Origin: Parcubacteria group bacterium
GTDB taxonomy: Bacteria; Patescibacteriota; Minisyncoccia; UBA10092
Direction: 5' to 3'
Length of the DNA stretch: 64,000 bases
Assembly: GCA_016186325.1 (NCBI GenBank)
Contig: JACPLW010000012.1
Span: forward strand, 18,644 to 82,643
Positions 21,885 through 53,520 of the stretch are shown here, piece by piece. Both the position numbers and the translations under genes were made by a program. Position 1 is the stretch's first letter. Every line of letters starts with the position of its first letter. Under the pieces are notes generated by a model, which was given only the letters and a program-made list of their open reading frames with translations, made no database searches and was not told the DNA's origin.

Positions 21885-22946
21885 TTACTTGCCCTCCGTA
21901 GCCTTGGCGAAGGAGAGTTCCTTACTACTTATTATCTCCACCGCCGCGAGTTCTATCGGCAAAGAGGGGATTGGTGAGCGCTTTATATCCTGCTGGGCGA
22001 TAAAAAGAATCTTAATCGCTTGGGCGGTTTTATCAAGCGGCCACGCTTCGGATTGTTTTTTTACCGTTTCAATTTGGTCCGGAGTGAGTTCTTGCACCAT
22101 TAGCTCTACAAGAGAAGAATCAACTTTAACAAGAAGAATTTTTCGGAAATGGTTTATTAACGATTTAGTAAATTCCTGAAGATCCGTTCCATCTTCGCAC
22201 AATTTTCCGACATAATCTATCGCTTCTTTGGGATTAACAGAGCAAAGGTGATCGGCCATTATTTTTACTTTTTCAAAATCAACCGCGCCTAAAAGTTCTT
22301 CTATATCTTGTTTCGTGATACTTTTTTCGCTCCAGTTTCTTAACTGTTCAAGCATTGATTCGGCATCACGATAGCTTCCTCCGGCATAATTGGCAATTAA
22401 CCTTATGGCATCATCATTAATTTTTATTTTTTCCGCTTCAATAATTTTTGAAAGTTTTTTCATGATTTCCAAAACCGTAAGCCGTCTGAAAGCAAACTGC
22501 TGGACGCGTGATAAAATGGTTTCCGGTACTTTGTGAGCTTCGGTTGTCGCCAGAACAAAAATTGCGTGAGCCGGCGGTTCTTCCAATGTCTTTAAAAGAG
22601 CGTTAAACGCTTCCTTAGTAAGCTGATGAACCTCATCAATAATAAAAACCTTATATTTTCCAGCAGTCGGCGCGAATTTTATTCCCTCCCGCAATTCTCT
22701 TATCTCATCAATGCCCCTGTTTGAAGCGGCATCAATTTCTATGAGGTCAAGGTCGGAACATTCAAGCGACTTTGCCAGAAGCCGGGCTATGGTGGTTTTC
22801 CCCGTGCCGCGCGGCCCGGAAAATAAATAAGCGTGGCCAACGCGATTAAGTTTCAAGGCATTGGTCAGAGTCCTTACGACATGCTCCTGCCCGATAACTT
22901 CACTCCATTCCTGCGGCCGATATTTTCTATATAAAACAAGATTCAT
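21885..22946 (-). CDS. dnaX: DNA polymerase III subunit gamma/tau (short form)
   Basis: 353 aa; 'YRPQEWSEVIGQEHV', Walker A 'GPRGTGKTT', 'IDEVHQL'; C-terminal tail 'SFAKATEGK' encoded by repeat element. Confidence 0.9.
   Translation of the reverse strand: MNLVLYRKYRPQEWSEVIGQEHVVRTLTNALKLNRVGHAYLFSGPRGTGKTTIARLLAKSLECSDLDLIEIDAASNRGIDEIRELREGIKFAPTAGKYKVFIIDEVHQLTKEAFNALLKTLEEPPAHAIFVLATTEAHKVPETILSRVQQFAFRRLTVLEIMKKLSKIIEAEKIKINDDAIRLIANYAGGSYRDAESMLEQLRNWSEKSITKQDIEELLGAVDFEKVKIMADHLCSVNPKEAIDYVGKLCEDGTDLQEFTKSLINHFRKILLVKVDSSLVELMVQELTPDQIETVKKQSEAWPLDKTAQAIKILFIAQQDIKRSPIPSLPIELAAVEIISSKELSFAKATEGK
21891..21917. repeat. GC-rich element GCCCTCCGTAGC..GCGAAGGAG(G) at 3' end of dnaX (encodes C-terminal 'FAKATEGK')
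   Basis: Family also at 25595-25630, 27070-27130, 36684-36710, 53349-53428. Confidence 0.7.
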
Positions 22947-22989
22947 ACGCGGTTTACTTTATCACAAAATTAGTATAAAGTAAAAAATA

Positions 22990-23283
22990 ATCCCCCACCC
23001 TTAAAGCATAGATTATGTTTTATGTTTATATATTAAAATCTAAAAAAGATGATAGTATCTATATTGGCTTTGCCCCAGATTTGAAAGCCAGATTTATAAA
23101 ACATAATCAAGGACTGGTTCAATCAACTAAAAATCTAAGACCATTGGAATTAGCATATTATGAAGCTTACAAATCTAAAAAAGACACTCTCATGAGAGAA
23201 AAAAGACTTAAACAATTTAAAAAAGGATATGCTTCGCTTAAAGGTCGAATAATAAACTCTTTAATGCTTTAAGGGTGGGGGAT
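22990..23283. mobile_element. 294-bp cassette: 20-bp perfect terminal inverted repeats (ATCCCCCACCCTTAAAGCAT / ATGCTTTAAGGGTGGGGGAT) flanking a GIY-YIG nuclease gene
   Basis: IRs at 22990-23009 and 23264-23283 read directly; miniature relative at 53936-54069 shares the outer 13 bp. Confidence 0.55.
23015..23272 (+). CDS. GIY-YIG nuclease family protein (YhbQ-like)
   Basis: 85 aa; 'FYVYILKSKKDDSIYIGFAPDLKARFIKH' GIY-YIG motif. Confidence 0.8.
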   Translation: MFYVYILKSKKDDSIYIGFAPDLKARFIKHNQGLVQSTKNLRPLELAYYEAYKSKKDTLMREKRLKQFKKGYASLKGRIINSLML

Positions 23284-23431
23284 GAAAAATTATTCGCGAA
23301 ACAACGCTGGAAAAGGCAAAACCGCTTTTAGGACAGGAGACAAATGGCGAGCAAGAAAAAATATAGTGGTAAGAGATATAAAAAGCATGCATAGAAGCAA
23401 GTCTCGACTGCCGCAATTAAAATCACAATAA
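23282..23431 (+). CDS. hypothetical very basic 49-aa protein; start codon overlaps right TIR (GGGTGGGGG acts as SD)
   Basis: MKNYSRNNAGKGKTAFRTGDKWRARKN...; below the ORF-track length cutoff. Confidence 0.3.
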   Translation: MKNYSRNNAGKGKTAFRTGDKWRARKNIVVRDIKSMHRSKSRLPQLKSQ

Positions 23432-23438
23432 AAATACC

Positions 23439-24290
23439 ATGGCTATCAAAAAAATAGGCCTAGCTTTAGGCGGCGGGGGAGCAAAAGGGTTTGCTCATAT
23501 TGGCGTTATTAAAGCGCTTGAAGCGGCAGGAATTAATATTGATTATATTGCCGGCACCAGTATGGGGGCTCTTATCGGAGGTTATTACGCCGCGACTAAA
23601 GATATTAAGACGCTTGAAGAATTGTCGCTCGGTATTAAAAAAAGCGACATTTTTCCCATCAGTGAAGTAATCCGCAGAAAAGACGGATCGCTGTTCCGGG
23701 GCGAATCAATAGTAAAACTCCTTGATCATCGCCTGTCTGGCATAAAAATTGAAGATTGTAAAATTCCTTTTACAGCCGTGGCTACTGATTTAAAAACTGG
23801 AGACGAAATAAAACTTAAAAGCGGAAGTTTAACAGACGCGATACGCGCAAGCATTGCCATACCTGTAGTTTTCAGTCCTGTAGAAATAGACGGGAGATTT
23901 CTTATGGACGGCGGCTTTTCAAATCCCGTTCCGGCCGATATCGTTAGAGAAATGGGGGCTGATATTGTAATCGCTGTTGATGTTTCCAGCCGTTGGATTA
24001 TGGCGCCTGACGAAATATTAAACACTCATGATATTTACTCTTTATTCAGTAATGCTTTATCGGTAATCGAGTATCAGCTTGCAAAAAACATTCTTAAAGA
24101 CGCGGATATTGTTATTCGCCCGCCGGTTTTAACCTACGACTGGATGGCATTTGATAAATCGGCCGAGATAATAAAAACCGGCCAAAAAGAACTGGAACTT
24201 AATCTTAAAGAAATAAGAAAAAAAACCGGTCATCATACCCCGCGCCGCACTACCCTTGAAAAGTTTTTTGACTTTATTATAAATAAATAA
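23439..24290 (+). CDS. patatin-like phospholipase
   Basis: 283 aa; 'GGGGAKG', 'GTSMG' (GxSxG), 'DGG'. Confidence 0.9.
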   Translation: MAIKKIGLALGGGGAKGFAHIGVIKALEAAGINIDYIAGTSMGALIGGYYAATKDIKTLEELSLGIKKSDIFPISEVIRRKDGSLFRGESIVKLLDHRLSGIKIEDCKIPFTAVATDLKTGDEIKLKSGSLTDAIRASIAIPVVFSPVEIDGRFLMDGGFSNPVPADIVREMGADIVIAVDVSSRWIMAPDEILNTHDIYSLFSNALSVIEYQLAKNILKDADIVIRPPVLTYDWMAFDKSAEIIKTGQKELELNLKEIRKKTGHHTPRRTTLEKFFDFIINK

Positions 24291-24302
24291 ATAACAATAA
24301 CT

Positions 24303-24917
24303 ATGAAATACGAACTGCCAAAACTGCCATATTCTTACGATGCACTAGAACCTTACATTGACACTAAGACAATGGAAATCCACCATGGAAAACACCATCA
24401 GTTTTATATTGATAAGCTCAACGCTGCTTTGGAAAAATATCCCGATTTAGCCGATAACCCCGCCCTTAAGCTTAAGAGCGGGGATAAAAAACTGGAGGAG
24501 CTTATAAAAGACCTGCCCAATTTAACTATGGTAGACGAAGCCGACAAAAAAGCGATTCATAACAACGGCGGGGGACACATAAACCATTCGTTTTTCTGGC
24601 AAATTATGGCGCCGCAAAAAGAAGTTGATGAAGCATTGTTTGAAGAGATTAAATCAACTTTCGGTTCGCCGGAAGAATTTAAAAAAATATTCAGCAACAC
24701 CGCCGCCACCCACTTTGGCAGCGGATGGGCTTGGCTGGCGCGCGACGAACAAAATAAACTTCAAATATATTCATTGCCAAATCATGATTTTCCTTATTTG
24801 AAAGGCCATCAGCCTCTTATAGTACTTGATCTCTGGGAACACGCCTATTATCTAAAATACCAGAACCGCCGGGCCGAATATATAGAAAATTGGTGGAATG
24901 TTTTGAAGTTATTATAG
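24303..24917 (+). CDS. sodA: Fe/Mn superoxide dismutase
   Basis: 204 aa; 'LPYSYDALEPYID..MEIHHGKHH', 'DLWEHAYY'. Confidence 0.95.
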   Translation: MKYELPKLPYSYDALEPYIDTKTMEIHHGKHHQFYIDKLNAALEKYPDLADNPALKLKSGDKKLEELIKDLPNLTMVDEADKKAIHNNGGGHINHSFFWQIMAPQKEVDEALFEEIKSTFGSPEEFKKIFSNTAATHFGSGWAWLARDEQNKLQIYSLPNHDFPYLKGHQPLIVLDLWEHAYYLKYQNRRAEYIENWWNVLKLL

Positions 24918-24923
24918 GGTTGG

Positions 24924-25041
24924 CCCCGTTAGAAGTCCGACAAGTCGGCAGACGTCGTCGGCGTCTTACTTCTAACGGGGTTGACCCCGTTAGAAGTCCG
25001 ACAAGTCGGCAGACGCCGTCGGCGTCTTACTTCTAACGGGG
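24924..25041. repeat. two tandem 57-bp GC-rich palindromic elements (CCCCGTTAGAAGT..ACTTCTAACGGGG) separated by TTGA
   Basis: Copies 24924-24980 and 24985-25041 differ at one base; second copy abuts the -35 TTGACA of the downstream promoter. Confidence 0.85.
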
Positions 25042-25069
25042 TTGACAGATTATGTAGATTTGATATAAT
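25042..25069 (+). promoter_or_regulatory. consensus promoter TTGACA-N16-TATAAT (near-twin of promoter at 8673)
   Basis: TTGACA 25042-25047, TATAAT 25064-25069; both promoters share 'tttgaTATAATg'. Confidence 0.7.
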
Positions 25070-25075
25070 GTAGGT

Positions 25076-25573
25076 AATGCTGGGAAACAGGCCGAATCCT
25101 GGTTGTAAGACAAGTTTCAGGTGCCTCGAAGAGCATGGACCTATCCCAGCAGCACATTTTTCCTTAACAAAGCCAAAAATCGGCGCGACAGTTCTGTAAC
25201 TGTCCAAATGTGCCGGAGACTAACCTTTGCGGTTTTGCCTCTGTCGCGCCGAACAAAATCCCGTTGCCACTGTCGCTGTCGCGACAGGGGAGACGCCTTC
25301 TTACCTAGCGTCTCGTGAAGCAACGGAACTAAAGTCCTGGCCACATGTCCATGCGGGGTTGGTGGTCCAGGAGCGGTGCCCTATCGCCACAAGTGAGATG
25401 GGCAAACCGATGGTAGTGAGCCTCTCGGTTAGTAATTCAACTCCTTCGCTGTTGACCTATGGTCCACGGTGAATGCGCCTCTTGGCACACCCGTGTAAAG
25501 GATGGCCGCCATGTGCCGTCTAACAGCGAAGATCGTTCCTGCCTGCGCGAGCTCACCGCGCAGGCCTTTTTTT
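25076..25573 (+). ncRNA. candidate ~500-nt structured non-coding RNA of unknown family
   Basis: GC-rich (~55%) island with multiple long-range complementary segments (TCGGCGCGACAG/CTGTCGCGCCGA, CCGTTGC/GCAACGG, GAGACGC/GCGTCTC), no convincing ORF, promoter and terminator on + strand. Confidence 0.5.
25541..25573 (+). terminator. intrinsic terminator GCCTGCGCG agctcacc GCGCAGGC + T7
   Basis: Read directly. Confidence 0.8.
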
Positions 25574-25633
25574 ATTCTTCTTAAAGAAGAATAACCCTTC
25601 CGTAGCCCCGCTTTTCGGGGCGAAGGAGGGTAC

Positions 25634-26491
25634 TCAACTATTTAATATACTTCCAACAAAATCTCTGTGGCCGTTTAGAAATTCTTCGGCAGTCAATATT
25701 TTTCCGCCCTCAAGTTGAAGTTTTTTTATAATTAAAATATTTTTGCCACATTTAATTATGATGTCGCTATTTTTCAGAAAAATTTCACCCTGCCTGCCGG
25801 CAGGCAGGCGATTTTTATTGTTACTATCATAAAAAATATCCGCTTCTATTATTTTTAAACTTTTACCATTCCACATTGTCCAAGCGCTTGGCCACGGATA
25901 ATAGCCCCTGGTCATTCTTTCAATCTCGCCTGCGCTTTTTGTCCAATCAATTTTTCCGTCTTCTTTTTTTATAATTTTAGTATAAGTCGCTTTCGAATGC
26001 TCTTGTTCAATCGGCTTAATTTTTCCTGAAATATAATCGGGAATAGTTTTTATCAAAAGCTCCGCCCCTATTTCGGCAAGTTTTTTAGAAAGAGTTTCAT
26101 AACTATCTGATTTAGAAATTAGAAATTTGGACTTAGAAATTATCGCCCCGTGGTCCATTTCTTCATCAATTTTTATTATAGTTACGCCCGTTTCTTTTTC
26201 ACCGTTTAAAATAGCCGACTGAATCGGCGAAGCGCCGCGGTATTTTGGAAGTAGCGATGGATGAACATTAATAAAACCATAGCGGGGGATATCTAAAATT
26301 TCTTTTGGCAAAATCTTTCCGTAAGCCGCTATTAAGCCCAGATCCGGCTTTAAATCTTTTAGTTTTTCTATTAAAACAGAAACCGATTCCTTAGGGTCGC
26401 GAAACATGGCTTGCGGTTCAAGCCCTGATTTTATTAACTTTTCCAAAATTATCGTCGCAAATTCCGGCGTCCCAAAAAATATAAATTTCAT
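25634..26491 (-). CDS. fmt: methionyl-tRNA formyltransferase
   Basis: 285 aa; 'FFGTPEFA', 'NVHPSLLPKYRGASPIQ'; contains 20-bp perfect palindrome CCTGCCTGCCGGCAGGCAGG at 25789-25808 (encodes 'LPAGRQG'). Confidence 0.9.
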   Translation of the reverse strand: MKFIFFGTPEFATIILEKLIKSGLEPQAMFRDPKESVSVLIEKLKDLKPDLGLIAAYGKILPKEILDIPRYGFINVHPSLLPKYRGASPIQSAILNGEKETGVTIIKIDEEMDHGAIISKSKFLISKSDSYETLSKKLAEIGAELLIKTIPDYISGKIKPIEQEHSKATYTKIIKKEDGKIDWTKSAGEIERMTRGYYPWPSAWTMWNGKSLKIIEADIFYDSNNKNRLPAGRQGEIFLKNSDIIIKCGKNILIIKKLQLEGGKILTAEEFLNGHRDFVGSILNS

Positions 26492-26586
26492 CCCGTTAGA
26501 AATCTATCTAGATTTTTCTTAATTATAAATACAATAGTAGTTGCTAATCTTAATTTAGTTTTATCTAATATAAAATTTCTAACGGG
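26492..26586. mobile_element. 95-bp AT-rich cassette with 12-bp TIRs CCCGTTAGAAAT/ATTTCTAACGGG between def stop and fmt start; flanking direct repeat ATGAA (start codon duplicated)
   Basis: TIRs read directly; same architecture at 29372-29471, 46605-46702, 49122-49218. Confidence 0.6.
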
Positions 26587-26591
26587 ATTCA

Positions 26592-27062: not shown

Positions 27063-27345
27063 AGATTTGCTTGCCCTCCGTAGCTTTCTTGCCCGCCGAA
27101 GCTTTAGCGTAGGCGGGAGCAAAGGAGGATAATTCCTTTTTTAAAATCCCCATGAAATACTTGCCGCGGTCTTCGCTTTTGATTTTCCCTTGACGCCAGA
27201 CATCTTTTACCAAGCTTAGTATCCGCCTTAAAAATGATTCGTCATAGGTTTTTGCCAGACGAAAATATACCCCCTTATGCTTTTCGTCATCCAAACCCTC
27301 AACCAAATCCCACGCTAAAACTTGATGTTTTGTCGTTAAAGGCAT
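26959..27345 (-). CDS. hypothetical small protein; 3' end uncertain (reading frame runs through a GC-rich repeat and ~100 nt into def)
   Basis: Start at internal ATG 27345 ('MPLTTKHQVLAWDLVEGL...'); upstream part of track ORF overlaps ctpA start. Confidence 0.3.
   Translation of the reverse strand: MPLTTKHQVLAWDLVEGLDDEKHKGVYFRLAKTYDESFLRRILSLVKDVWRQGKIKSEDRGKYFMGILKKELSSFAPAYAKASAGKKATEGKQIYGKSVKNNSRGRSGSKKKIGNRKRPKKSGNPEIN
27070..27130. repeat. GC-rich composite hairpin element (TTGCCCTCCGTAGC..TGCCCGCC..GGCGGGAG..AAGGAGGA) immediately upstream of def
   Basis: Same family as 21891-21917; in the upstream ORF frame it encodes 'SSFAPAYAKASAGKKATEGK'. Confidence 0.7.
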
Positions 27346-27361
27346 AATATTAAAATACCAT

Positions 27362-28588: not shown

Positions 28589-28610
28589 GAACGCGATACC
28601 AATATATTTT

Positions 28611-29331: not shown

Positions 29332-29371
29332 AGATTTCTAATAGAATAACAAATTATGAATTATAAATCAA

Positions 29372-36099: not shown

Positions 36100-37688
36100 T
36101 ATAGTAGCCGGCCAAGGCCCTGGTTTTGTATTTTTCCTTCAGAAAAAGCCATTTTCCCGTTAATAATAACCGAATGAATTCCTCCGGAATACTGAAAAGG
36201 GTTTTCGTAAGTCGCCAGGTCTTTTACGGTCTCCGGGTTAAAAACGGTAATATCGGCAAAATACCCGTCTTTAATAACGCCGCAGTTTTTTAGGCCCATT
36301 TTAAGCGCCGGCAAAGCCGTCATTTTCTTTATCGCCTCTTCCCAGCTCAAAATGTTTTTTTCACGAACATAGCGGCCCAAAACTCTGGTAAAAGAGCCGA
36401 AAGAGCGGGGATGAAAAAGCTGATTTGATTGCGCGTCATCCAAATTGGCGGCAACGCCGTCGGAAACAATGATAGAAAACGGACTTTTTAACGATTCAAT
36501 TAAATTTTCTTCACTAAGAGAATTCCAAAAAACCATTAATCTTCCTTCCGCGGAAATCAAAAGATTAATTATCGCTTCGCAAACTCCTACGCCTTGATTC
36601 TTGGCGATATTGCCGATAGTTTTCCCGATATAAATTTTATCAATGTCTCCGGACGCGATTACAATATCTTTAAATTCATCCTTGCCCTCCATAGCTTTAG
36701 CGACGGAGGGTTGTTTCATCTCCGAAATAGCGCGAGCCCGCAGTTGTTGATTTTTTAAGTTTTCTACAAGTTTTGTTCTGCCGCCAACGGCAATCCAGTC
36801 GGGCAAAAGAGTATACAAAATGGTTGCGGTTGAAGCATACGGATAGACATCAAAATTAATATTCATCCCCGTTTCGGCCGCTTGGTGAATCTCGTCCAAG
36901 CTTTTTTTAAACAGCGGCCAATTATTTTTTCCGACAGCTTTAAAATGAGAAATCTCAAGATTTGTTTTATTTTTTCTTGCCGTTTCAATAGCCTCAACAA
37001 CACTTTCGTAAAGCTTGGCGCCTTCGTCTCTTAAATGCGTCGCGTAAATTTTTCCGGAATCTAAAATCGACAAAAGGCCGGATATTTCTTCGGACAAGAC
37101 TATCTTAGCGTGCGAATAGCTTAGTCCGGTTGAAAATCCAATCGCCCCGTCGTTTATAGAGGCCTCAAGCAGATGTTTCATTTGAGAAAATTCCTTTGAG
37201 TCCAAATCCCGAAATTCATCCTTTATAATCCCCCGCCGCAAGGTAGAATGACCAACTAAAGTACCGAAATTCAAAAGTAGTTTTCTTTTTTTTATTTCTT
37301 CAAAAAATTCACGGGTCGTCTGCCAGTTAACGTTAATTTTTTTGACATCGGCCCATTTTTGGATGCTTAAAATAATGTTGCCGGAGGTTAGCGGTGATAA
37401 AGAAGAACCGCAGTTTCCTCCGATAATCGTGGTAATCCCCTGGCGCACCAAACTTTCCGCGTTCGGATGGCTAAAAAGCGTCCAGTACCGGTCTGAGGCA
37501 TTGTTTATATCAATAAATCCGGGAGCAACAAAAAGACCGGTGGCATCAATGGTGGTTTTCGCGCTTGGCGTGCCTAAAAAACCGATTTTCTCTATCTTTC
37601 CGTCTTTTATTGCGATATCAGCATGATACGCCGGCGTCCCCACGCCATCTATCACCGTTCCGTTTTTAATTAAAATATCTAAGGCCAT
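36099..37688 (-). CDS. amidohydrolase, N-acyl-D-amino-acid deacylase (D-aminoacylase) family
   Basis: 529 aa; 'ILIKNGTVIDGVG..DIAIKDGKI', 'APGFID'; contains in-frame GC-rich repeat (36684-36710) encoding 'SVAKAMEGK'. Confidence 0.6.
   Translation of the reverse strand: MALDILIKNGTVIDGVGTPAYHADIAIKDGKIEKIGFLGTPSAKTTIDATGLFVAPGFIDINNASDRYWTLFSHPNAESLVRQGITTIIGGNCGSSLSPLTSGNIILSIQKWADVKKINVNWQTTREFFEEIKKRKLLLNFGTLVGHSTLRRGIIKDEFRDLDSKEFSQMKHLLEASINDGAIGFSTGLSYSHAKIVLSEEISGLLSILDSGKIYATHLRDEGAKLYESVVEAIETARKNKTNLEISHFKAVGKNNWPLFKKSLDEIHQAAETGMNINFDVYPYASTATILYTLLPDWIAVGGRTKLVENLKNQQLRARAISEMKQPSVAKAMEGKDEFKDIVIASGDIDKIYIGKTIGNIAKNQGVGVCEAIINLLISAEGRLMVFWNSLSEENLIESLKSPFSIIVSDGVAANLDDAQSNQLFHPRSFGSFTRVLGRYVREKNILSWEEAIKKMTALPALKMGLKNCGVIKDGYFADITVFNPETVKDLATYENPFQYSGGIHSVIINGKMAFSEGKIQNQGLGRLL
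36684..36710. repeat. GC-rich element GCCCTCCATAGCTTTAGCGACGGAGGG in frame inside amidohydrolase gene
   Basis: Same family as 21891-21917 and 27070-27130. Confidence 0.65.
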
Positions 37689-46047: not shown

Positions 46048-46097
46048 AATGAGTCCCGCGCTGGCGGGACGAGCGCGCGAGAAAAATGATTTAAATT

Positions 46098-46604: not shown

Positions 46605-46702
46605 CCCGTTAGAAATTTAATAAAATTATAATTAACTAAATTATTATTAAGCAATTGTTTTTGCAATGCGATATTAAATGAGAAAAATAGATTTCTAACG
46701 GG
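46605..46702. mobile_element. 98-bp AT-rich cassette with TIRs CCCGTTAGAAAT/ATTTCTAACGGG between scpA stop and scpB start; ATGAAT duplicated on both sides
   Basis: Upstream ATGAAT contains scpA TGA stop; downstream ATGAAT is scpB M-N. Confidence 0.65.
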
Positions 46703-46704
46703 AT

Positions 46705-47508: not shown

Positions 47509-47539
47509 AATTTATTGCTAGAAAAAATAATTACATATT

Positions 47540-47655
47540 TATTCTCTAAGCGGGTTATGAGCGCGAAGCGGGCATGGTGTCCCGCGAAGCGGGACGAGCG
47601 AGCGCGAATCCCTGAGCGAGCACGCTGGGCGAGCGAGGAAAGCGAGAGAATAAAT
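47540..47655. repeat. GC-rich repeat-laden intergenic block (GCGCGAAGCGGG, GTCCCGCgaaGCGGGACGAGCGAGCGCGAA, GAGCGAG repeats) bounded by IR TATTCTCT/AGAGAATA
   Basis: Between aspS stop and scpA start. Confidence 0.5.
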
Positions 47656-47678
47656 ATGGAATTATTGTTGTATTTTGA

Positions 47679-49121
47679 TTATTTTTTTACAGAAATATGT
47701 AATTCTTTTAACTGTTTTTCGTTAACTTCTGATGGTGCGCCCATCAGCAAATCTCTATCATCGCCGGTTTTGGGAAACGCAATAACTTCCCTAATTGACT
47801 GCTCATTCATTAAAATCATCATGAGCCGATCAAGCCCAAGCGCAATGCCCCCATGCGGTGGAGCGCCATATTCAAAAGCGCGAAGCATATGGCCAAAACG
47901 CGCCTCAATGTCTTTTTTCTCAACTCCTAAAACTTCAAACATTTTATTTTGCAATTCTCTTTTATGGATTCTGATGCTTCCACCGCCTATTTCACTGCCA
48001 TTCAAAACCAAGTCATATGCTTTTGCTTTTAATTTTTCCGGATGAGTCATGTCGATATCAGCGGGTTTGCCCGCCAAAATTTCTTCGAAATTTCCGGCGG
48101 GCGCAGTAAACGGATGGTGCGATGAAACCCATTTTTTTTCGGTTTTGGAATATTCCAATAACGGCATATTCACTACCCAGGCGAAAGCCAATTCATCGGG
48201 ATTATTTTTACCTGCCCCGTAGGGTCGCGAAGCGACTCCTTCGGGGTCTTCGCGCAAATCCGGTTTATCGGAATTATATCTTGCCATTACTTCATCATAA
48301 TCCATTCTCGGAAACGGCTTCTTCCAAATTTTCTTTTCTGGAAAAATTGTTTCAACAAGTTTAATCATCATTCCTTCAATCAAATCCAAGACGTCGTCTT
48401 CCTCAACAAAACTCATTTCAACATCAAGCTGGGTAAATTCCGGCTGGCGGTCTCCCCTGCTATCTTCATCTCTAAAACAGCGAGCAATTTGAAAATATCT
48501 CTCCAAACCGGCGACCATTAAAAGCTGTTTGAATTGCTGGGGCGACTGGGGTAAAACATAAAAATTACCCGGGTGCTTTCTGGAAGGCACAACAAATTCC
48601 CGCGCTCCTTCGGGCGTGCCCTTGGTTAAATCCGGTGTTTCAACTTCTATAAATTTTTGTTCTTTTAGATAATTATTTAAAAATCTTAAAACTTCAGAGC
48701 GCTTCGTTAAGTTTTTCTGCATTTTTGGGTCGCGCAAATCAAGATAGCGATATTCCATCCGCAACTCCTCCCCTACTTTATCTTTTTCTCCAATTTCAAA
48801 AGGTGGAGTTTTGGCCTCATTTAAAACTTCCAGTTCTTCGGCGGCAAGTTCAATTTCGCCGGTTTCCAGTTTTGGGTTTTTCAGATTTTCCGGCCGCTCT
48901 TTTACCGTGCCTTCAATTGAAACAACCCACTCGGAGCGAAGCTGGTCGGCTTGTTTTCGCAAATCTTCGTTTCCTGCAAAAACAACCTGGAGCAAGCCGG
49001 AGCGGTCTCTTAAATCAATAAAAATAATCTTGCCGTGGTCGCGGCGCACATGAACCCAGCCGGAAACCTTAACCTTCTCTCCCACTTTTGAAATTGTTTC
49101 GTTTATAAATATGCGTTTCAT
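47679..49121 (-). CDS. aspS: aspartyl-tRNA synthetase (short, non-GAD type)
   Basis: 480 aa; OB fold, motif 2 'FRDEDSRGDRQPEFTQLDVEMSF', motif 3 'GGIALGLDRLMMIL'. Confidence 0.9.
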   Translation of the reverse strand: MKRIFINETISKVGEKVKVSGWVHVRRDHGKIIFIDLRDRSGLLQVVFAGNEDLRKQADQLRSEWVVSIEGTVKERPENLKNPKLETGEIELAAEELEVLNEAKTPPFEIGEKDKVGEELRMEYRYLDLRDPKMQKNLTKRSEVLRFLNNYLKEQKFIEVETPDLTKGTPEGAREFVVPSRKHPGNFYVLPQSPQQFKQLLMVAGLERYFQIARCFRDEDSRGDRQPEFTQLDVEMSFVEEDDVLDLIEGMMIKLVETIFPEKKIWKKPFPRMDYDEVMARYNSDKPDLREDPEGVASRPYGAGKNNPDELAFAWVVNMPLLEYSKTEKKWVSSHHPFTAPAGNFEEILAGKPADIDMTHPEKLKAKAYDLVLNGSEIGGGSIRIHKRELQNKMFEVLGVEKKDIEARFGHMLRAFEYGAPPHGGIALGLDRLMMILMNEQSIREVIAFPKTGDDRDLLMGAPSEVNEKQLKELHISVKK

Positions 49122-49218
49122 CCCGTTAGAAATTTATTTAAATAAATAATGTTAATTTTTAATCAATATCCGACATTTGGCATATCCCGCAGACTAATAT
49201 TTATAGATTTCTAACGGG
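49122..49218. mobile_element. 97-bp AT-rich cassette with TIRs CCCGTTAGAAAT/ATTTCTAACGGG abutting aspS start; ATGAA duplicated
   Basis: Read directly. Confidence 0.6.
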
Positions 49219-49268
49219 ATTCATAATAGACAAATTCTACCATATCAAATAATAAAAATTCAAATCGC

Positions 49269-49296
49269 TTGACAAAAAACCAAAAGATTGTAACAT
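49269..49296 (+). promoter_or_regulatory. promoter TTGACA-N16-TAACAT then SD TAAGGAGG for 49347 gene
   Basis: Read directly. Confidence 0.5.
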
Positions 49297-49346
49297 AGAA
49301 CCCGTCGATAGTAGGTCCCTTCACAATTAAAGTTAAGGAGGCGGTA

Positions 49347-50318
49347 ATGAATAAATTCACAGCGTATTTCTTTCTGTTTGTTACCCTACTTCTGCCAAAT
49401 CTCACGCAAGCCAGCTCTTTTGATGCAAAAATCGAGTTTAGCAACGCTAAAAAACTTTGTCTCGCAAAGCTCGGGGAAGATAACCTAAATCAATGGGAAA
49501 AAATCACCCTTGAGGACGGTACAATCATTGTCTGTGGAAAAGGTGAGAAAACGCCGTGGAGTGAGACAACCGGCCCAGAAATTACGGTACTTACTGAAAC
49601 CGGAGGTCGTACCTGCGCCTCAACGGCTTATAACCTCTCTGGAAATTTGCAGACCCTTGGCATATCTGCCGGAGAAACCGCGAGAACACTCATTGTCATT
49701 ATGGGTAGTGTTCTTGAAAAGATGAAGGAAACCGGTAGGTATGATTACGAAATTACTGACGCGCTTTTCCGCCAAATAAACGAACTTCTGCCGTCTCTTG
49801 ATTGGATAGTCAAAGACAGCGGCTGGTATATTTTGGGTGAAGCAGATAGTGCGCTCTCGCGGCTCTCATACATGGGACGTCTTTACGGCAAGCGTTACGG
49901 CATGCAAGTCATATCACTTTTCAACCAACTCATAGTAGATGGCAATGCGCGCTACCGAGATAACGAAGCGTGGTCGTTGTATTATAGAAAAGAAATCCTA
50001 AAGAATTTATACTATGCGATTAACGGCCTGATTCTTATTTCGGATACATTGCCGGACTGGGAAAAACCCACAAAACAGGAAATGAAAGAACTTGCCAAGA
50101 CATACCTTGAGTTTATAAAAGCTTACCCAGAAAAACACGGCTGGCTTTCAAAAAAAGAAATAGAAGTATTGGCCGATACCGACCCAGACATTCTTGCGGA
50201 AATTAGGAAGCTGGAAACGAAACGTGAAGAGACGGCTAACCTGAAAAACGTTACGGAAGAAGCAGAAAAAGAGTGGCAGAAAAAACAACCGGACATCATT
50301 GATACCGTTGAAAATTAA
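49347..50318 (+). CDS. secreted hypothetical protein (323 aa), visibly higher GC than neighbours
   Basis: Signal peptide 'MNKFTAYFFLFVTLLLPNLTQASS'; canonical SD; terminator hairpin AACCGCCTCGCAAGGCGGTT follows. Confidence 0.55.
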   Translation: MNKFTAYFFLFVTLLLPNLTQASSFDAKIEFSNAKKLCLAKLGEDNLNQWEKITLEDGTIIVCGKGEKTPWSETTGPEITVLTETGGRTCASTAYNLSGNLQTLGISAGETARTLIVIMGSVLEKMKETGRYDYEITDALFRQINELLPSLDWIVKDSGWYILGEADSALSRLSYMGRLYGKRYGMQVISLFNQLIVDGNARYRDNEAWSLYYRKEILKNLYYAINGLILISDTLPDWEKPTKQEMKELAKTYLEFIKAYPEKHGWLSKKEIEVLADTDPDILAEIRKLETKREETANLKNVTEEAEKEWQKKQPDIIDTVEN

Positions 50319-50326
50319 ATTTAAAA

Positions 50327-50352
50327 AAATAACCGCCTCGCAAGGCGGTTTA
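50327..50352 (+). terminator. hairpin AACCGCCTCGCAAGGCGGTT + TATCTT
   Basis: Read directly; weak T tract. Confidence 0.45.
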
Positions 50353-50521
50353 TCTTATGTACCTAAACTATCAAGAAGCTTTCTTAACCAGCTCTCATCT
50401 TCGGCCTTCTTTTTGTTAAACAGTAGTTACTTCACCCTCTGTAAATTTTCTATCACAATTATCGCAAGCGGTTTTATCGCCCCCATATCCTTCCAAGTCC
50501 TCGTAGTCCATTTTTTCCTCC

Positions 50522-51022
50522 TTACCGCTCCTCAAACTGTCTGCCAACGATATTTTCCGGATGCTCTTTATTAAAAAGCTTTTCACTGTCACAAAGTAAA
50601 TAAACATTCGCTATCCCAGCTTCAATCATCTTATCCCAACAATCCTTACAACACCACCAATGGCCCCAGAGATAAAGATCGGCATCGATCGTTTCATCAA
50701 CTCTTTGTCGCTTAACATCTGCGATCGCCTTTGCTTCGCTGTGATTTTTAGGATGACAACCTTCACATAATTCGTAACCCTCGCCGCTCTTACAACCCAA
50801 AAGTACTCTCTGGCATTGATGCTTTTTATGATAATCGCTGCCGTTTGCTCCCATGCCAATCATTACATTGTTTTTAACAATAACCGCCGCTCCGGGCATC
50901 GTTTTATCCAGCGAATACCTTTTAGCAAACATCCGCACACACGCCATATATTTGTCATCGTCGGACACGTATCTTATTTCTTTTCCTTCAGGTAAATATG
51001 GATATTGAATTTTATTTTCCAT
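50522..51022 (-). CDS. CMP/dCMP deaminase family zinc-binding protein
   Basis: 166 aa; 'HSEAKAI' (H.E), 'CKDCWDKM' (C..C). Confidence 0.75.
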   Translation of the reverse strand: MENKIQYPYLPEGKEIRYVSDDDKYMACVRMFAKRYSLDKTMPGAAVIVKNNVMIGMGANGSDYHKKHQCQRVLLGCKSGEGYELCEGCHPKNHSEAKAIADVKRQRVDETIDADLYLWGHWWCCKDCWDKMIEAGIANVYLLCDSEKLFNKEHPENIVGRQFEER

Positions 51023-51112
51023 TAGCTGATCCTTCTCATTGAAATAAAAAAGAACTAGTATTAAAATACTACAATATGACGACGTCTTGACACAATAAGA
51101 AATTTTGTGTCT

Positions 51113-52199
51113 TTATTTTTTTAACTCTGCTTCTATAAATTCGTCTAAATCGCCGTCTAAAACTTTTTCAACTTGGGAAGTTTCATAATCGGTGCGATGG
51201 TCTTTTACCATTTGATAAGGATGAAACACATAGGAACGGATTTGGGCACCCCATTCGGCTGATTTTTTAATTTTTTTAACTTTAGCTAATTCCACTTCTT
51301 CTTTCTTTATTTGTAGCGCGTGAAGCTTGGAAGCTAAAAGCTGCATGGCTTTATCGTGATTTTTCGATTGGGAACGTTCTGTTTGGACAGCCACGGCAAT
51401 TCCGGTTGGTAAATGAGTAATTCTGACCGCTGTCTCGCGCTTATTTACGTTTTGCCCGCCGGCACCGGAAGATCGGAATGTATCAACTCTTAAGTCCTCT
51501 GTCTTTATATTAATATCTTTAGATTCAATTTCAGGCACTACTTCCAAAGCGGCAAAAGAAGTGTGGCGCAATTTATTTGGTGAAAATGGAGAAATCCTCA
51601 CGAGGCGATGAACACCGGCTTCATTTTTTAAATACCCGTAAGCGTAAGAACCGCGCACTTCAATAGTGGCGCTTTTTACTCCGCCTTCTTCACCTAAAGA
51701 TTCGCTAAGAATGCCGGATTCCCATCCTCGAGATTCCACAAACCGGCTGTACATTCTTAGTAACATCGATGCCCAATCTTGGGCATCGCGGCCTCCAACT
51801 CCTGCCGAAATTGTTAGAATGGCGTTATTTTTATCGTATTTTCCAGAAAGAAAAACTTGAAGTTCCGCTTTAGAAAATCTTGCTTCAAGAGCGGCAAATT
51901 TTTCCGCAGTTTCGTTTAAAAGTTTTTTGTCGGATTCTTTTTCTCCCAAAGTGGCAAGTTCCAAAATTTCAACGGCTTCGGTTTCAAAATCGCTCCAAGC
52001 GTGGATTTCTTTTTCAAGTTCCGAAATTTCTTTTTGAACCAATTTGGCTTTATCCTGATTTTTCCAAAAATCAGATTTTTCGGTTTCTTTTTTTAATTCT
52101 TCAATCCTGGATTTCTTTCCGGGTAAATCAAAGACGGTCCGCAGTAATGCGGGATTTAGTGAGTAATCCTTGAATTTTTTCTTTTAAGTTCTCTATCAT
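51113..52199 (-). CDS. prfB: peptide chain release factor 2 with programmed +1 frameshift
   Basis: Frame 0: MIENLKEKIQGLLTKSRITADRL then CTT-TGA-T (plus 52128-52133); +1 frame continues DLPGKKSRIEELKKE.. into the 309-aa ORF containing 'GGQNVNK'. Confidence 0.85.
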
Positions 52200-52295
52200 A
52201 TTGCAATTATATTATCACAAAATTGATAAAATTACAAATAATGGTTCGGCTTCTTTCAACTCCACTCAGAACAAGTTACTCACCACAAATAAAAT

Positions 52296-52330
52296 CCCTC
52301 CCGCAATGCGGGAGGGATTTTATTTAAAAT
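52296..52330. terminator. bidirectional terminator TCCCTCCCGC aat GCGGGAGGGA flanked by A/T runs
   Basis: Read directly. Confidence 0.7.
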
Positions 52331-52339
52331 ATCTTGTTA

Positions 52340-53128
52340 TTACTTTGCCCAAATGACAAATGTGAAGAGTTTTTCACCGTTGCCGAGATTTCGCTCGTAT
52401 AGAGAATTATTGCCTCGCGCGTCTTGTTTCACTGCCTTGCCCCAAGCTGACGGGTCGTTAAGGTCTATATCCTGACCGACAGTTGCGGGCTTACCATTGC
52501 CTCCGCCGTCAACTGAAAAAAGAGCTGTATCAAAGCCGTCTAGATGGGCGTAGATTTCTGCGAGCTCATCATAATCGTGCTGATTCGGATGTTGGTTGGT
52601 TGACGGATCACTGGTGTAATCCATGCAAGTGCCGAGATTGGGATTGTCAAAAATTTCATCCTGATGGTCAAGCCCCAAAGTGTGGCCGACTTCCTGGCAC
52701 ATGACTAAATTTCTCCATTCCGGAGTATTGTAGGTGGCAGTATTAAAATAAGAATCATTTACTTTTACCGCACCTTTAGTTATATGCTCGCCATTTACCC
52801 AAATCTGGGCAACGCCGAGCCAGCCATTAAATCCATATTTTTCACTGCACACTTCTACCCTGCCGGTGGTTGCCTTGCAGGTGCGCGGCTTTGTTTTGCC
52901 CAAATCAACAACGGTATCAAGAACGTCAGAAATACTCCAATCGCTTGCAGTTGTTGCAAGATAGCTGTCCCATGCCAAAGAAACATTATCGCCGAGTTTC
53001 AATGTGAACGGATTTGAAGTGCGCGCCCAGTGGTATCCATTCCAAGAATGAGTTGCGCTTACAACTGACACCGCAACAAAAACTGCCACAAGAACCGAAA
53101 AGACTATTACATATTTTCTTATATTCAT
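52340..53128 (-). CDS. secreted zinc metalloprotease (metzincin-type HExxHxxGxxH)
   Basis: 262 aa; signal peptide; 'MCQEVGHTLGLDHQDE'; higher GC than genome. Confidence 0.7.
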   Translation of the reverse strand: MNIRKYVIVFSVLVAVFVAVSVVSATHSWNGYHWARTSNPFTLKLGDNVSLAWDSYLATTASDWSISDVLDTVVDLGKTKPRTCKATTGRVEVCSEKYGFNGWLGVAQIWVNGEHITKGAVKVNDSYFNTATYNTPEWRNLVMCQEVGHTLGLDHQDEIFDNPNLGTCMDYTSDPSTNQHPNQHDYDELAEIYAHLDGFDTALFSVDGGGNGKPATVGQDIDLNDPSAWGKAVKQDARGNNSLYERNLGNGEKLFTFVIWAK

Positions 53129-53202
53129 AATAATTTATTTAATTTAATTACATAATAATATTAAAAAGAAAGACTGTCAAAAATGGGAAAGTCTAATCTT
53201 AG

Positions 53203-53274
53203 AGCCGCCCCTCGGAATCGAACCGAGGACCTACTGTTTACGAAACAGTTGCTCTACCACTGAGCTAGGGCGGC
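53203..53274 (-). tRNA. tRNA-Thr (anticodon CGT)
   Basis: Minus fold: GCCGCCC/GGGCGGC acceptor, D-arm GCTCAGTGGTAGAGC, anticodon loop UU-CGU-AA, T-arm CTCGGTTCGATTCCGAG. Confidence 0.85.
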
Positions 53275-53277
53275 ATA

Positions 53278-53348
53278 AGCGGGTAAGGAGAATCGGACTC
53301 CTGTCTCAACCTTGGGAAGGTCGTATACTACCATTGTACTATACCCGC
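53278..53348 (-). tRNA. tRNA-Gly (anticodon CCC)
   Basis: Minus fold: GCGGGTA/TACCCGC acceptor, anticodon loop UU-CCC-AA, T-arm AGGAGTCCGATTCTCCT. Confidence 0.8.
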
Positions 53349-53520
53349 CTTCGCCCTCCGAAGCTAAAGCTTCTGCGGGCTACGGCGGGCAAAGCCCGCT
53401 ATAACCCATTTTAGCGAAGGAGGGTTCGTCCCGCCTCGGCGGGGCTTCGGTCGCACGCCGCCATAGCTTTGGCGACGGCGCGCGGACAAGCCCGCTAAGA
53501 TCACGAAGGCGAGATTTTCA
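53349..53520. repeat. GC-rich block of nested hairpins upstream of tRNA-Gly/Thr (GCCCTCCGAAGC..GCGAAGGAGGG, GGGCTACGGCGGGCAAAGCCC, CCCGCCTCGGCGGGG)
   Basis: Shares motifs with 27070-27130 family. Confidence 0.5.

What the first reader, a model, noticed from the sequence alone, without database searches (positions are those of the whole stretch)
21891..53428. GC-rich hairpin element encoding '(S)FAKA(T/M)EGK' read in frame in three unrelated proteins, and intergenic near def, fmt and the tRNA-Gly/Thr pair
GCCCTCCGTAGC(Y)TTRGCGA(A/C)GGAGGG-type hairpins occur at the last codons of dnaX ('ELSFAKATEGK*', 21891-21917), inside the D-aminoacylase-family gene ('QPSVAKAMEGKDEF', 36684-36710), and between a small ORF and def (27070-27130). 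In the def copy the upstream frame reads 'SSFAPAYAKASAGKKATEGKQ' and then runs ~100 nt into def with no stop. Further copies sit 3 nt after the fmt stop (25595-25630) and in the block upstream of the tRNAs (53349-53428). This is a second family of in-frame insertions.
Basis: seen in the sequence. Interest (0 to 1): 0.6.

Follow-up and report, generated by a model that had tools for sequence, protein, structure and literature searches.

The report
Mobile GC-rich hairpins inserted into genes
A 30-base GC-rich hairpin repeat, resembling the REP elements of E. coli but with a different sequence tag, has recently inserted itself in frame into several essential genes of this tiny-genome (Parcubacteria) bacterium, and the same hairpin design turns up in many bacterial phyla and in viral contigs.

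Summary
The window, from a Parcubacteria/Azambacteria-like genome of about 40% GC, holds 9-10 copies of an imperfect palindrome: 5'-CTT-GCCCKCC-RWA-GC-YTYR-GC-GWM-GGMGGG-3'. Chance predicts about 0.5 copies.

The copies are insertions:
- The 8-residue segment in the amidohydrolase is missing from all 77 closest orthologues.
- The DnaX tail is missing from 95 orthologues.
- Upstream of def, a relative carries one unit. The window carries exactly 30 extra bases, a second unit, inside that unit's loop, with no target duplication.

Unit lengths are multiples of three (30, 36, net 24) and contain no stop codons. Eleven of 17 intragenic copies are read in the frame that gives P-S/A-F-A-K-A-T/S-E/A-G-K.

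The same architecture, with covarying positions, occurs in at least ten phyla and in viral contigs, including inverted doublets. It is rare in the closest relatives.

My best reading is a REP-like non-autonomous hairpin element mobilised in trans. It lacks the GTAG tag, and no RAYT gene was found. Intragenic REPs are already known, so this is a new variant of a known kind.

The parts
21888..21917 (+). 30-nt unit CTTGCCCTCCGTAGCCTTGGCGAAGGAGAG. Read on the minus strand it supplies the last 10 codons of dnaX (LSFAKATEGK), immediately before the TAA stop. It lies 38 nt upstream of tRNA-Gln.
   Evidence: Sequence. Covariance-model hit at E = 5.8e-8. The tail is absent from 95 orthologues. Removing the 30 nt leaves ...EIISSKE-TAA.
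25596..25630 (+). Copy with a longer apical stem (CCTTCC-GTAGC-CCCGCTTTTCGGG-GCGAA-GGAGGG), ending 3 nt from the fmt stop codon. In the sense orientation it is followed by TTATTCTTCTTT.
   Evidence: folding energy -22 to -24 kcal/mol. A copy at the orthologous site in relative L123 has a different apex inside otherwise identical flanks.
27070..27129 (+). Two nested units between the small ORF and def. The outer unit is 27070-27087 plus 27118-27129. The inner 30-nt unit is 27088-27117 (CTTGCCCGCCGAAGCTTTAGCGTAGGCGGG), inserted between loop bases 3 and 4 of the outer unit. On the minus strand the pair reads SSFA-PAYAKASAGK-KATEGK. Its GGAGG lies 12 nt upstream of the def ATG.
   Evidence: Inner unit covariance-model hit at E = 4.6e-10. 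Relative L123 has only the outer unit (TCCTCCTTCGCT|AAAGCTACGGAGGACAAG).
36681..36710 (+). Unit CTTGCCCTCCATAGCTTTAGCGACGGAGGG inside the D-aminoacylase-family amidohydrolase gene, which is on the minus strand. It reads PSVAKAMEGK and adds a net 24 nt (8 codons).
   Evidence: Covariance-model hit at E = 7.9e-10. Absent from 77 orthologues. DNA comparison with L001. Residues 330-336 have pLDDT below 50 and lie between a helix and a strand.
48066..48101 (+). 36-nt unit TTTGCCCGCC-AAAATTTCTTCGAAATTTCC-GGCGGG inside AspRS, which is on the minus strand. It reads PAGNFEEILAGK. It has the family's outer stem and tail but a different, AT-rich palindromic interior.
   Evidence: Covariance-model hit at E = 0.003. 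Sequence. Exactly 12 codons are absent from the 81%-identical orthologue L001:60-1436.
53342..53500 (.). Composite block of nested copies in both orientations, directly upstream of tRNA-Gly/tRNA-Thr (which are on the minus strand). It contains an outer copy at 53353-53424 on the plus strand, a minus-strand copy at 53342-53391 whose 3' arm overlaps the tRNA-Gly 5' end, a CGCC-stem variant at 53455-53482, and other GC hairpins.
   Evidence: about -37 to -40 kcal/mol for each half. No Rfam family matches even at E <= 10.
10989..11023 (-). Diverged copy (GCTT-GCACTCC-GCAGC-TCATTGA-GCGAA-GGAGTG) that starts at the CCA end of tRNA-Met, with the same orientation relative to the gene as the other copies.
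   Evidence: Covariance-model hit at E = 0.005. Sequence.

Best explanation
These are copies of a short, non-autonomous, REP-like hairpin element. The unit is a conserved CTT (CYT) followed by a 27-nt imperfect palindrome. The palindrome has four parts:
- a 6-7 bp GC stem (CCCKCC/GGMGGG)
- a conserved 3x3 non-pairing zone that is purine-rich on one strand (RWA/GWM)
- two G-C pairs
- a YTYR loop whose first and last bases pair

I propose that a trans-acting enzyme copies or moves it as single-stranded DNA. The enzyme would recognise the folded, strand-asymmetric hairpin, in the way HUH/Y1 (RAYT, IS200-type) transposases act on REPs. Insertion leaves no target-site duplication. It lands preferentially at gene 3' ends, next to tRNA genes and in the loops of resident copies.

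Units are 30 or 36 nt and contain no stop codons, so insertions into coding DNA survive when they fall in a surface loop or a C-terminal tail. There they are translated as about 10 extra residues, most often P-S/A-F-A-K-A-T/S-E/A-G-K.

**Shown:** the repeat family, its conserved architecture and covariation, the insertion polymorphisms, one exact 30-nt nested insertion without duplication, and expansion specific to this lineage.

**Inferred:** the single-stranded DNA mechanism and the identity of the enzyme.

**Possible secondary roles, not shown:** a 3'-end or terminator hairpin after fmt, and supply or masking of the def ribosome-binding site.
For: **Repeat family**
- The window holds 9-10 copies against about 0.5 expected.

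**Insertions**
- Amidohydrolase: +8 aa, absent from 77 of 77 orthologues. The net gain is 24 nt relative to L001.
- DnaX: the tail is absent from 95 of 95 orthologues.
- AspRS: +12 aa relative to an 81%-identical orthologue.
- def leader: the relative has one unit and the window has an exact 30-nt second unit in its loop. The junctions are unambiguous and there is no duplication.

**Different ages**
- The fmt and outer def copies are shared with L123.
- The nested copy and the DnaX, amidohydrolase and AspRS copies are private to this genome.

**Expansion specific to this lineage**
- The window has 8 model hits at E < 0.05 in 64 kb.
- Eighty Parcubacteria dnaX loci (680 kb) have only 9 hits at E <= 0.1.
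- The closest relative's 42 kb has none.

**REP-like anatomy conserved far beyond the search pattern**
- The free 4-nt loop is YTYR, with its first and last bases paired, in 52 of 56 sequences.
- K9-M28 covaries (GC 27, UA 20).
- In the internal loop G.A alternates with A.C, and the G-C pair that would close it is avoided.
- The 5' flank is g-C-Y-T.

**Organisation**
- Inverted doublets of a short and a long subtype, and clusters, resemble BIMEs.

**DNA-level rather than RNA-level signature**
- Stems show no strand-specific wobble excess: 14 G.T against 13 A.C.

**Tolerance in proteins**
- The amidohydrolase insert lies in a low-confidence loop.

**Precedent**
- Intragenic REPs are documented, notably in replication/repair genes and tRNA synthetase genes (PMC3733652).
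- REPs with a required irregular zone, processed by TnpA_REP as single-stranded DNA, are described (PMC8266576).
Against: - **No transposase found.** No HUH/RAYT or IS200-type motif occurs in the window, in 120 genome loci, in the dnaX loci or in 120 viral loci. This was a crude regex scan, and complete genomes were not available.
- **No recurring neighbour gene**.
- **Wrong tag.** The defining REP tag GTAG (or CGTC) is not at the head of the element. The head is gCYT.
- **Variants within one window.** Copies in this 64-kb window differ at the covarying positions instead of being near-identical, as they would be after a recent burst from one master copy. Several coexisting subtypes are needed to explain this, as with the E. 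coli y, z1 and z2 REPs.
- **Unusual conservation.** Near-identical sequence across phyla is atypical for REPs, which are normally specific to a species or genus.
- **Untidy junctions.** The amidohydrolase gain is 24 nt, not 30. The AspRS junction has a 5-nt direct repeat (CCCGC). Both could point to microhomology-mediated copying rather than site-specific transposition.
Confidence: 0.6

Rival explanations
1. The hairpin is mainly a functional nucleic-acid motif. It could be a transcript 3'-end, stabiliser or terminator hairpin, or a binding site for a conserved host protein. Selection on that partner, not the needs of a mobilising enzyme, would explain its conservation across phyla. Copies would spread by recombination, and the coding copies would be by-products.
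For: - The architecture and the non-canonical 3x3 loop are conserved across phyla. The G.A to A.C change there is consistent with RNA isostericity, and the loop is of the CUUG type.
- In several phyla the hairpin plus a T-run sits 2-3 nt after tRNA-Met, which is the form of an intrinsic terminator.
- Within the window every scored copy has the same orientation relative to its gene, including the one plus-strand case.
- Twenty-three of 32 copies in AT-rich genomes are intergenic, and many lie at gene ends.
- The fmt copy is followed by a T-rich tract.
- GGAGG of the def copy could serve as a ribosome-binding site.
Against: - Only 3 of 144 viral copies, and a minority of genome copies, are followed by a T-run.
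- Both orientations occur relative to genes in other genomes.
- Stems show no strand-specific G.U excess.
- Recent insertions inside an enzyme loop and at protein C-termini have no obvious regulatory logic.
- Density varies by more than tenfold between close relatives.
- No Rfam family matches.
Confidence: 0.2
2. The hairpins arise through replication errors: template switching or microhomology-mediated copying from existing copies or from foreign (phage) DNA. No dedicated enzyme would be involved. The recurring sequence would reflect what folds stably and is tolerated.
For: - There is microhomology at two junctions: a CCCGC direct repeat at the AspRS insert, and a GGAG-like target in the amidohydrolase with a net gain of 24 rather than 30 nt.
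- No transposase was found.
- The apex of the fmt copy changed between relatives while about 100 nt of flanking sequence stayed identical.
Against: - The nested insertion is exactly one unit, with no microhomology and no duplication.
- The same head (CYT), the same internal-loop rules and the same loop class in at least ten phyla and in viruses are hard to obtain by convergence.
- The control pattern is rare.
Confidence: 0.1
3. The decapeptide (P-S-F-A-K-A-T-E-G-K) is a selected protein module, and the DNA palindrome is secondary.
For: - Eleven of 17 intragenic copies in AT-rich genomes use the same reading frame. That is about 1e-5 by chance for six frames and about 5e-4 for four.
- The tail codon is Lys or Arg.
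Against: - Most copies are intergenic, and other frames and both orientations occur.
- The covarying changes (F..T, V..M, Y..S) make sense as base-pair or mismatch partners, not as residue contacts.
- The peptide is absent from all orthologues and is predicted to be disordered.
Confidence: 0.04

Closest known systems
REP/BIME elements and their TnpA_REP (RAYT) transposases, especially the enterobacterial 'group 2' REPs that have a bulge in the stem
   Same: - A 20-50 nt GC-rich imperfect palindrome with a conserved irregular zone in the stem.
- A conserved short motif at the head of the element.
- Several coexisting subtypes.
- Inverted doublets and clusters.
- Location mostly at gene 3' ends.
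- A TTCA/YTYR-type short loop flanked by G-C pairs.

   Evidence: PMC8266576; PMC3733652.
   Different: - The head motif is gCYT/CTT, not GTAG or CGTC. A GTAG/GAAG/ATAG sequence lies inside the hairpin instead.
- No RAYT gene was detected nearby.
- The same sequence class spans many phyla and viral contigs instead of one genus.
- The host here is a reduced Parcubacteria genome.
- The family is absent from E. coli, from cultured-phage records and, in practice, from plasmid records.
Intragenic REPs (Di Nocera et al. 2013, PMC3733652) and Rickettsia palindromic elements (RPE-4 and RPE-6 are CGTC REPs; RPE-1 is longer)
   Same: - Palindromic repeats inserted in frame into essential genes and translated as extra residues.
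- Over-representation of replication/repair genes and tRNA-related genes. Here the hosts are DnaX and AspRS; in relatives they are RecR, a class-I tRNA synthetase, a CCA-adding-type enzyme and HsdM.
- Some copies lie at the ends of ORFs.
   Different: - The sequence and tag are unrelated. None of the published REP-encoded peptides matched ours.
- The unit is a fixed 30 nt.
- There is a strong bias towards one reading frame.
- One insertion is nested within a resident hairpin loop and was caught against an unfilled orthologous site.
MITEs (miniature inverted-repeat transposable elements)
   Same: Short, non-autonomous, multi-copy and able to fold. They occasionally insert in frame.
   Different: - No terminal inverted repeats matching a parent insertion sequence.
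- No target-site duplication.
- Only 30 nt long.
Rho-independent terminator hairpins
   Same: A GC-rich stem with a tetraloop. Some copies are followed by a T-run after tRNA-Met or after fmt.
   Different: - Most copies lack a T-run.
- The internal loop and the head motif are conserved.
- Copies lie inside ORFs.

Membership tests
REP (repetitive extragenic palindrome) / REPtron | Short (20-50 nt) palindromic unit that folds as a GC-rich stem-loop | tested here: met
   A 27-nt imperfect palindrome. It folds at -8 to -24 kcal/mol per unit. Stem cells are 97% paired.
REP (repetitive extragenic palindrome) / REPtron | Conserved tetranucleotide GTAG (or CGTC) at one end of the palindrome | tested here: not met
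   The 5' flank is g(53%)-C(63%)-Y(89%)-T(69%) and the 3' flank is not conserved. A GTAG/GAAG/ATAG sequence is internal, within the irregular zone.
REP (repetitive extragenic palindrome) / REPtron | High copy number, mostly intergenic and near gene 3' ends | tested here: inconclusive
   The window has 9-10 copies in 64 kb. In AT-rich genomes 23 of 32 copies are intergenic. No complete genome was available for a full count.
REP (repetitive extragenic palindrome) / REPtron | Organisation as inverted doublets or clusters (BIME/REPIN-like) | tested here: met
   Inverted short/long doublets 2-4 nt apart occur in L281 and L314. Many 5' flanks are ...GGMGGGC-YT. The tRNA-leader block in the window is a cluster.
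REP (repetitive extragenic palindrome) / REPtron | A cognate tnpA_REP (RAYT, HUH/Y1) gene flanked by REPs | tested here: inconclusive
   A regex scan for the HUH and WQxRF motifs found nothing in any sequence held. The scan is crude and covers only fragments of each genome.
MITE | Terminal inverted repeats and a target-site duplication | tested here: not met
   Comparing filled and unfilled sites shows an exact 30-nt insert with no duplicated bases.
Rickettsia palindromic elements (RPE) | Sequence membership in the RPE/CGTC families: AT pairs at the foot of the stem, 8-9 bp stems and a CCA tail | tested here: not met
   The stem is CCCKCC with no AT foot, and there is no CCA tail. Family descriptions are in PMC3733652.
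Intrinsic terminator | GC-rich hairpin immediately followed by a U-run on the transcribed strand | tested here: not met
   Only 3 of 144 viral copies are followed by a T-run. The dnaX and amidohydrolase copies have none. The feature is met only for a subset: after tRNA-Met in L012, L021 and L016, and partly after fmt.
Any Rfam RNA family | Match to a curated covariance model | tested here: not met
   There was no match over the elements at gathering thresholds across the whole window. There was none at E <= 10 over 53150-53650 or at E <= 1 over 24900-25640.

The most novel reading that the evidence does not exclude
This may be an undescribed hairpin-element superfamily spread across bacteria. 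Its features are a CYT head, a 6-bp CCCNCC stem, a 3x3 purine zone and a YTYR loop. It is present in at least ten phyla, in CPR bacteria and in environmental viral contigs. It would be maintained or mobilised by machinery that is not a classical RAYT, would insert into hairpin loops and gene ends without duplication, and would be biased towards one reading frame. The def-leader site would then be a captured de novo insertion event, of a kind that has been lacking for REP-type elements.
Probability: 0.3. Interest if true: 0.8.

Novelty: new variant of a known kind. Interest (0 to 1): 0.6.

Why it matters
How REP-type hairpins spread is still unsettled. [quoted passage not shown] PMC3733652 asks whether de novo formation of such repeats still occurs.

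This window offers three things that bear on those questions:
1. A clean pair of unfilled and filled sites, showing that one 30-nt unit entered the loop of another with no duplication.
2. Several very recent insertions into essential genes (DnaX, AspRS, an amidohydrolase) in a genome otherwise known for extreme streamlining.
3. A hairpin design, with covarying positions, shared across distant phyla and viral contigs.

There are practical consequences too:
- The elements lengthen proteins and fuse or extend ORFs. The small ORF now overlaps def, and the relative's def was called 36 residues short.
- They generate peptides such as FAKATEGK, SFSEGG and FGGQA. These can contaminate protein families and hypothetical-protein annotation in metagenome-assembled genomes.

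Tried and rejected
- **Rfam.** Searches at gathering thresholds and at relaxed E-values matched nothing on the elements.
- **Literature, exact sequences.** Full-text search for exact 12-mers gave only coincidental primers and probes.
- **Literature, REPs in CPR.** A search linking REPs to CPR bacteria found nothing.
- **Published REP peptides.** Published intragenic REP peptides did not contain ours.
- **RAYT/IS200 motifs.** Motif scans of all sequences held found nothing.
- **Neighbouring genes.** All-against-all clustering of about 3,300 neighbouring ORFs returned only response regulators and short-chain dehydrogenases, the families that are common everywhere.
- **BLAST of consensus units.** Plasmids gave only weak partial hits. 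Cultured phages and 5,426 E. coli genomes gave none.
- **Strand-specific wobble test for an RNA role.** The counts were symmetric, 14 against 13.
- **Terminator test.** A T-run follows the hairpin only rarely.
- **Ideas considered and dropped.**
  - tRNA minihelix or tRNA-fragment origin. The element lacks the acceptor and T-arm features. Its closeness to tRNA genes may simply reflect how little intergenic space these genomes have.
  - Sarcin-ricin/loop-E and k-turn assignments for the internal loop. The strand lengths and the observed variants do not fit.
  - Group II intron domain V, integron attC sites and CRISPR repeats. No shared features.
  - Assembly artefact. Copies sit at orthologous sites in independent metagenomes and preserve reading frames.

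Full report
**What is there**

The window comes from a Parcubacteria-group bacterium close to Candidatus Azambacteria. Source names on identical proteins say so. GC content is about 40%.

On the plus strand it reads 5'-CTT-GCCCKCC-RWA-GC-YTYR-GC-GWM-GGMGGG-3'.

- Read on the minus strand, it supplies the last codons of dnaX (...ELSFAKATEGK*).
- It supplies an internal segment of a D-aminoacylase-family amidohydrolase (...QPSVAKAMEGKDEF...).
- It supplies the end of a small ORF that then runs about 105 nt into def without a stop.
- One copy ends 3 nt from the fmt stop.
- A block of nested copies lies directly upstream of tRNA-Gly/tRNA-Thr.

The arm sequences occur 6-7 times against 0.4-0.6 expected.

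I built a covariance model from independent copies in other genomes. It recovers the three best window copies at E = 5e-10 to 6e-8. It also finds five more at E = 0.003-0.03 and the fmt copy at E = 0.38. One lies inside AspRS (48066-48101). The other is a degenerate copy starting at the CCA end of tRNA-Met (10989-11023, minus strand).

**They are insertions**

- **Amidohydrolase.** An 8-residue segment (SVAKAMEG) is absent from all 77 closest orthologues, including one at 86% identity. At the DNA level the gain is a net 24 nt. In an AlphaFold model (mean pLDDT 85.7) residues 330-336 are one of only two stretches with pLDDT below 50. They lie between a helix and a strand, so the insert sits in a tolerant loop.
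- **DnaX.** None of 95 orthologues carries the tail; they end ...EIISSKENKI or similar. Removing the 30-nt unit leaves ...EIISSKE followed by the same TAA stop.
- **AspRS.** The closest relative, at 81% identity, lacks exactly 12 codons at the site of the model hit. It lacks another 12 codons at a second, related hairpin.
- **Small ORF upstream of def.** Distant homologues are 73-79 residues long and end shortly after the conserved YFMGI motif. A 74%-identical relative (L123) has one unit there: TCCTCCTTCGCT|AAAGCTACGGAGGACAAG. The window has the same unit with exactly 30 further bases (CCCGCCTACGCTAAAGCTTCGGCGGGCAAG) at the marked point. That point lies between loop bases 3 and 4 of the resident hairpin on the plus strand. 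The junctions are unambiguous, and no base is duplicated. This is a direct comparison of an unfilled and a filled site.
- **fmt.** This copy is shared with L123. Its apex differs between the two genomes while about 100 nt of flanking sequence is identical.

Insertions of different ages therefore coexist.

Density is specific to this lineage. The window has 8 hits at E < 0.05 in 64 kb. Eighty Parcubacteria dnaX loci totalling 680 kb have only 9 hits at E <= 0.1. The closest relative's 42 kb has none.

**Why they are 'in frame'**

The units are 30 nt (DnaX and both def units) or 36 nt (AspRS), and the amidohydrolase gain is a net 24 nt. All are multiples of three. The GC-rich palindrome has no stop codon in four to six of its six frames. 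These two properties explain most of the in-frame reading.

A real bias remains on top of that. Eleven of 17 intragenic copies use the one frame that reads P-S/A-F/V/Y-A-K-A-T/S/M-E/A-G-K. I counted copies in the window, in AT-rich genomes where ORFs can be trusted, and in the relatives' loci. Chance gives about 1e-5 for six frames and about 5e-4 for four.

In other Parcubacteria the same decapeptide sits inside five proteins:
- the RecR zinc finger
- HsdM
- a pyridine-nucleotide disulphide oxidoreductase
- a class-I aminoacyl-tRNA synthetase
- a CCA-adding/poly(A)-polymerase-type enzyme

**The family is much wider than this genome**

The hits came from CPR groups, Bacteroidota, the PVC group, Acidobacteriota, several classes of Proteobacteria, Ignavibacteria/Chlorobi and Omnitrophota. 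Locus GC content ranged from 0.33 to 0.71. A scan of IMG/VR viral contigs also hit its limit.

Features that the pattern left free are nevertheless conserved:
- The gap is 4 nt in 57 of 126 genome hits and 71 of 144 viral hits.
- The gap sequence is almost always YTYR (TTTA, CTTG, CTCG, TTCA). Its first and last bases are complementary in 52 of 56 distinct sequences.
- The flank at -4 to -1 is g-C-Y-T.
- The fourth stem pair covaries (GC 27, UA 20).
- In the 3x3 internal zone G.A alternates with A.C, and the G-C pair that would close it is almost never seen.

A control pattern of the same composition, with the 3' arm reversed, found only 14 viral stretches and none with a 4-nt gap.

Many loci carry extra copies, including inverted doublets of a short-loop and a long-loop subtype 2-4 nt apart. 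In AT-rich genomes 23 of 32 copies are intergenic. Several sit 2-3 nt after tRNA-Met and are followed by a T-run.

The family is absent from E. coli, from cultured-phage records and, apart from weak partial hits, from plasmid records. It matches no Rfam model.

**What it most resembles and how it probably works**

The anatomy has these features:
- a short GC-rich imperfect palindrome
- a conserved irregular zone in the stem
- a short conserved head motif
- several coexisting subtypes
- inverted doublets and clusters
- a preference for gene 3' ends
- occasional intragenic copies

This is the anatomy of REP/BIME elements. The closest match is the enterobacterial type, whose stem bulge is required for processing by TnpA_REP on single-stranded DNA (PMC8266576). 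Intragenic REPs are documented, with an excess in replication/repair and tRNA-related genes (PMC3733652). That matches the hosts seen here.

Three observations point to recognition at the DNA level rather than the RNA level:
- The nested insertion leaves no duplication.
- One strand is purine-rich in the internal zone, so the two strands are distinguishable.
- The stems show no strand-specific wobble excess, 14 G.T against 13 A.C.

I therefore favour a REP-like non-autonomous element mobilised in trans, probably as a folded single strand, with confidence 0.6.

Strict membership in the REP family fails on two counts:
- The head is gCYT, not GTAG or CGTC.
- No RAYT or IS200-type gene was found. 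This rests on crude motif scans over genome fragments only. No recurrent neighbouring gene was found either.

Three further points argue against a simple burst model:
- Copies within this one window differ at the covarying positions.
- Near-identical sequence across phyla is atypical of REPs.
- Two junctions show microhomology or a 24-nt rather than a 30-nt gain.

**Rival explanations**

- **Functional RNA/DNA motif, such as a 3'-end hairpin or a protein-binding site (0.2).** It would explain the conservation across phyla, the uniform orientation in the window and the terminator-like copies after tRNA-Met. It explains poorly the recent insertions inside enzymes, the tenfold density differences between relatives and the rarity of T-runs.
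- **Enzyme-free template switching (0.1).** It fits the microhomologies. It does not fit the exact nested unit or the conserved head.
- **Selected peptide module (0.04).** It is contradicted by the majority of intergenic copies, by the other frames and orientations seen, and by covariation that follows base-pair partners rather than residue contacts.

**Possible local effects (inferred only)**

- The fmt copy, with its following T-rich tract, may mark a transcript 3' end.
- GGAGG in the def-proximal arm lies 12 nt upstream of the def ATG. It is sequestered in the hairpin and would be opened by translation of the extended small ORF.
- The extension overlaps 35 codons of def. In the relative, it caused def to be called 121 residues long instead of 157.

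**Verdict**

In-frame insertion of palindromic repeats is already known. Three things are new here:
- the hairpin class itself: its tag, its architecture, its spread across phyla and viral contigs, and its presence in CPR bacteria
- the bias towards one reading frame
- a captured insertion of one unit into the loop of another

Noticed in passing
window 48210-48245 (AspRS, minus strand): A second 36-nt in-frame insertion (PEGVASRPYGAG) is absent from the 81%-identical orthologue. It is a related hairpin, ACCT-GCCCCGTAGG-GTCGCGAAGCGAC-TCCTTCGGG. It shares the CYT head and the GGGCAGG tail with the main family.
   Followed up: partly
window 25634-26491 (fmt), hairpin at 25785-25812: Fmt carries about 5 extra residues (RLPAG) from a different hairpin family, CCTGCCTGCCGGCAGGCAGG, which also occurs at 4718-4746. 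It lacks about 33 N-terminal residues that are present in the relative's Fmt. Pfam matches only the second two-thirds of Formyl_trans_N.
   Followed up: partly
window about 25210-25570, plus strand; L123 7780-8010: A GC-rich non-coding stretch ends in a strong terminator (CCTGCGCGAGCTCACCGCGCAGGCCTTTTTTT). It is partly conserved in the relative. It has no Rfam match and only spurious-looking ORFs, so it may be an unannotated RNA gene.
   Followed up: partly
Orthologues P0011, P0015, P0021, P0022, P0042, P0043, P0052 and P0058 of the amidohydrolase: Other Azambacteria carry a different short insert, S(A/T)RGGSAFGG, at another position in the same enzyme. Small GC-rich in-frame inserts are therefore recurrent in this clade.
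   Followed up: no
window 47561-47639; 46050-46083; 8812-8863; 59235-59258 and 59465-59491: Further GC-rich hairpin families are present: the GTCCCGCGAAGCGGGAC type downstream of AspRS, and the CCCCGCAACTGCGGGG type. The latter also lies within the RNase P RNA match (59208-59537).
   Followed up: no
L012 1908-1934; L021 202-228; L016 5456-5482: In unrelated phyla the same hairpin starts 2-3 nt after tRNA-Met or a tRNA 3' fragment. It is followed by a T-run, as in a terminator. In Bacteroidales the tRNA 3' fragment and the hairpin are repeated together.
   Followed up: partly
L123 6001-6727: In the relative, the element-extended small ORF (114 aa) overlaps def. The public gene call for def is consequently truncated to 121 residues, against about 157 expected.
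   Followed up: partly
L042 (class-I aaRS ORF): Besides the FAKATAGK insert, the same protein contains ...HCEEWSEAERRGNPENRASDSGLLRVARNDK.... This looks like translation of yet another GC-rich repeat family.
   Followed up: no
window 23015-23272: A small GIY-YIG-type ORF (85 aa, MFYVYILKS...IYIGF...) lies next to dnaX. I recognised it by eye only. No link to the hairpins was tested.
   Followed up: no
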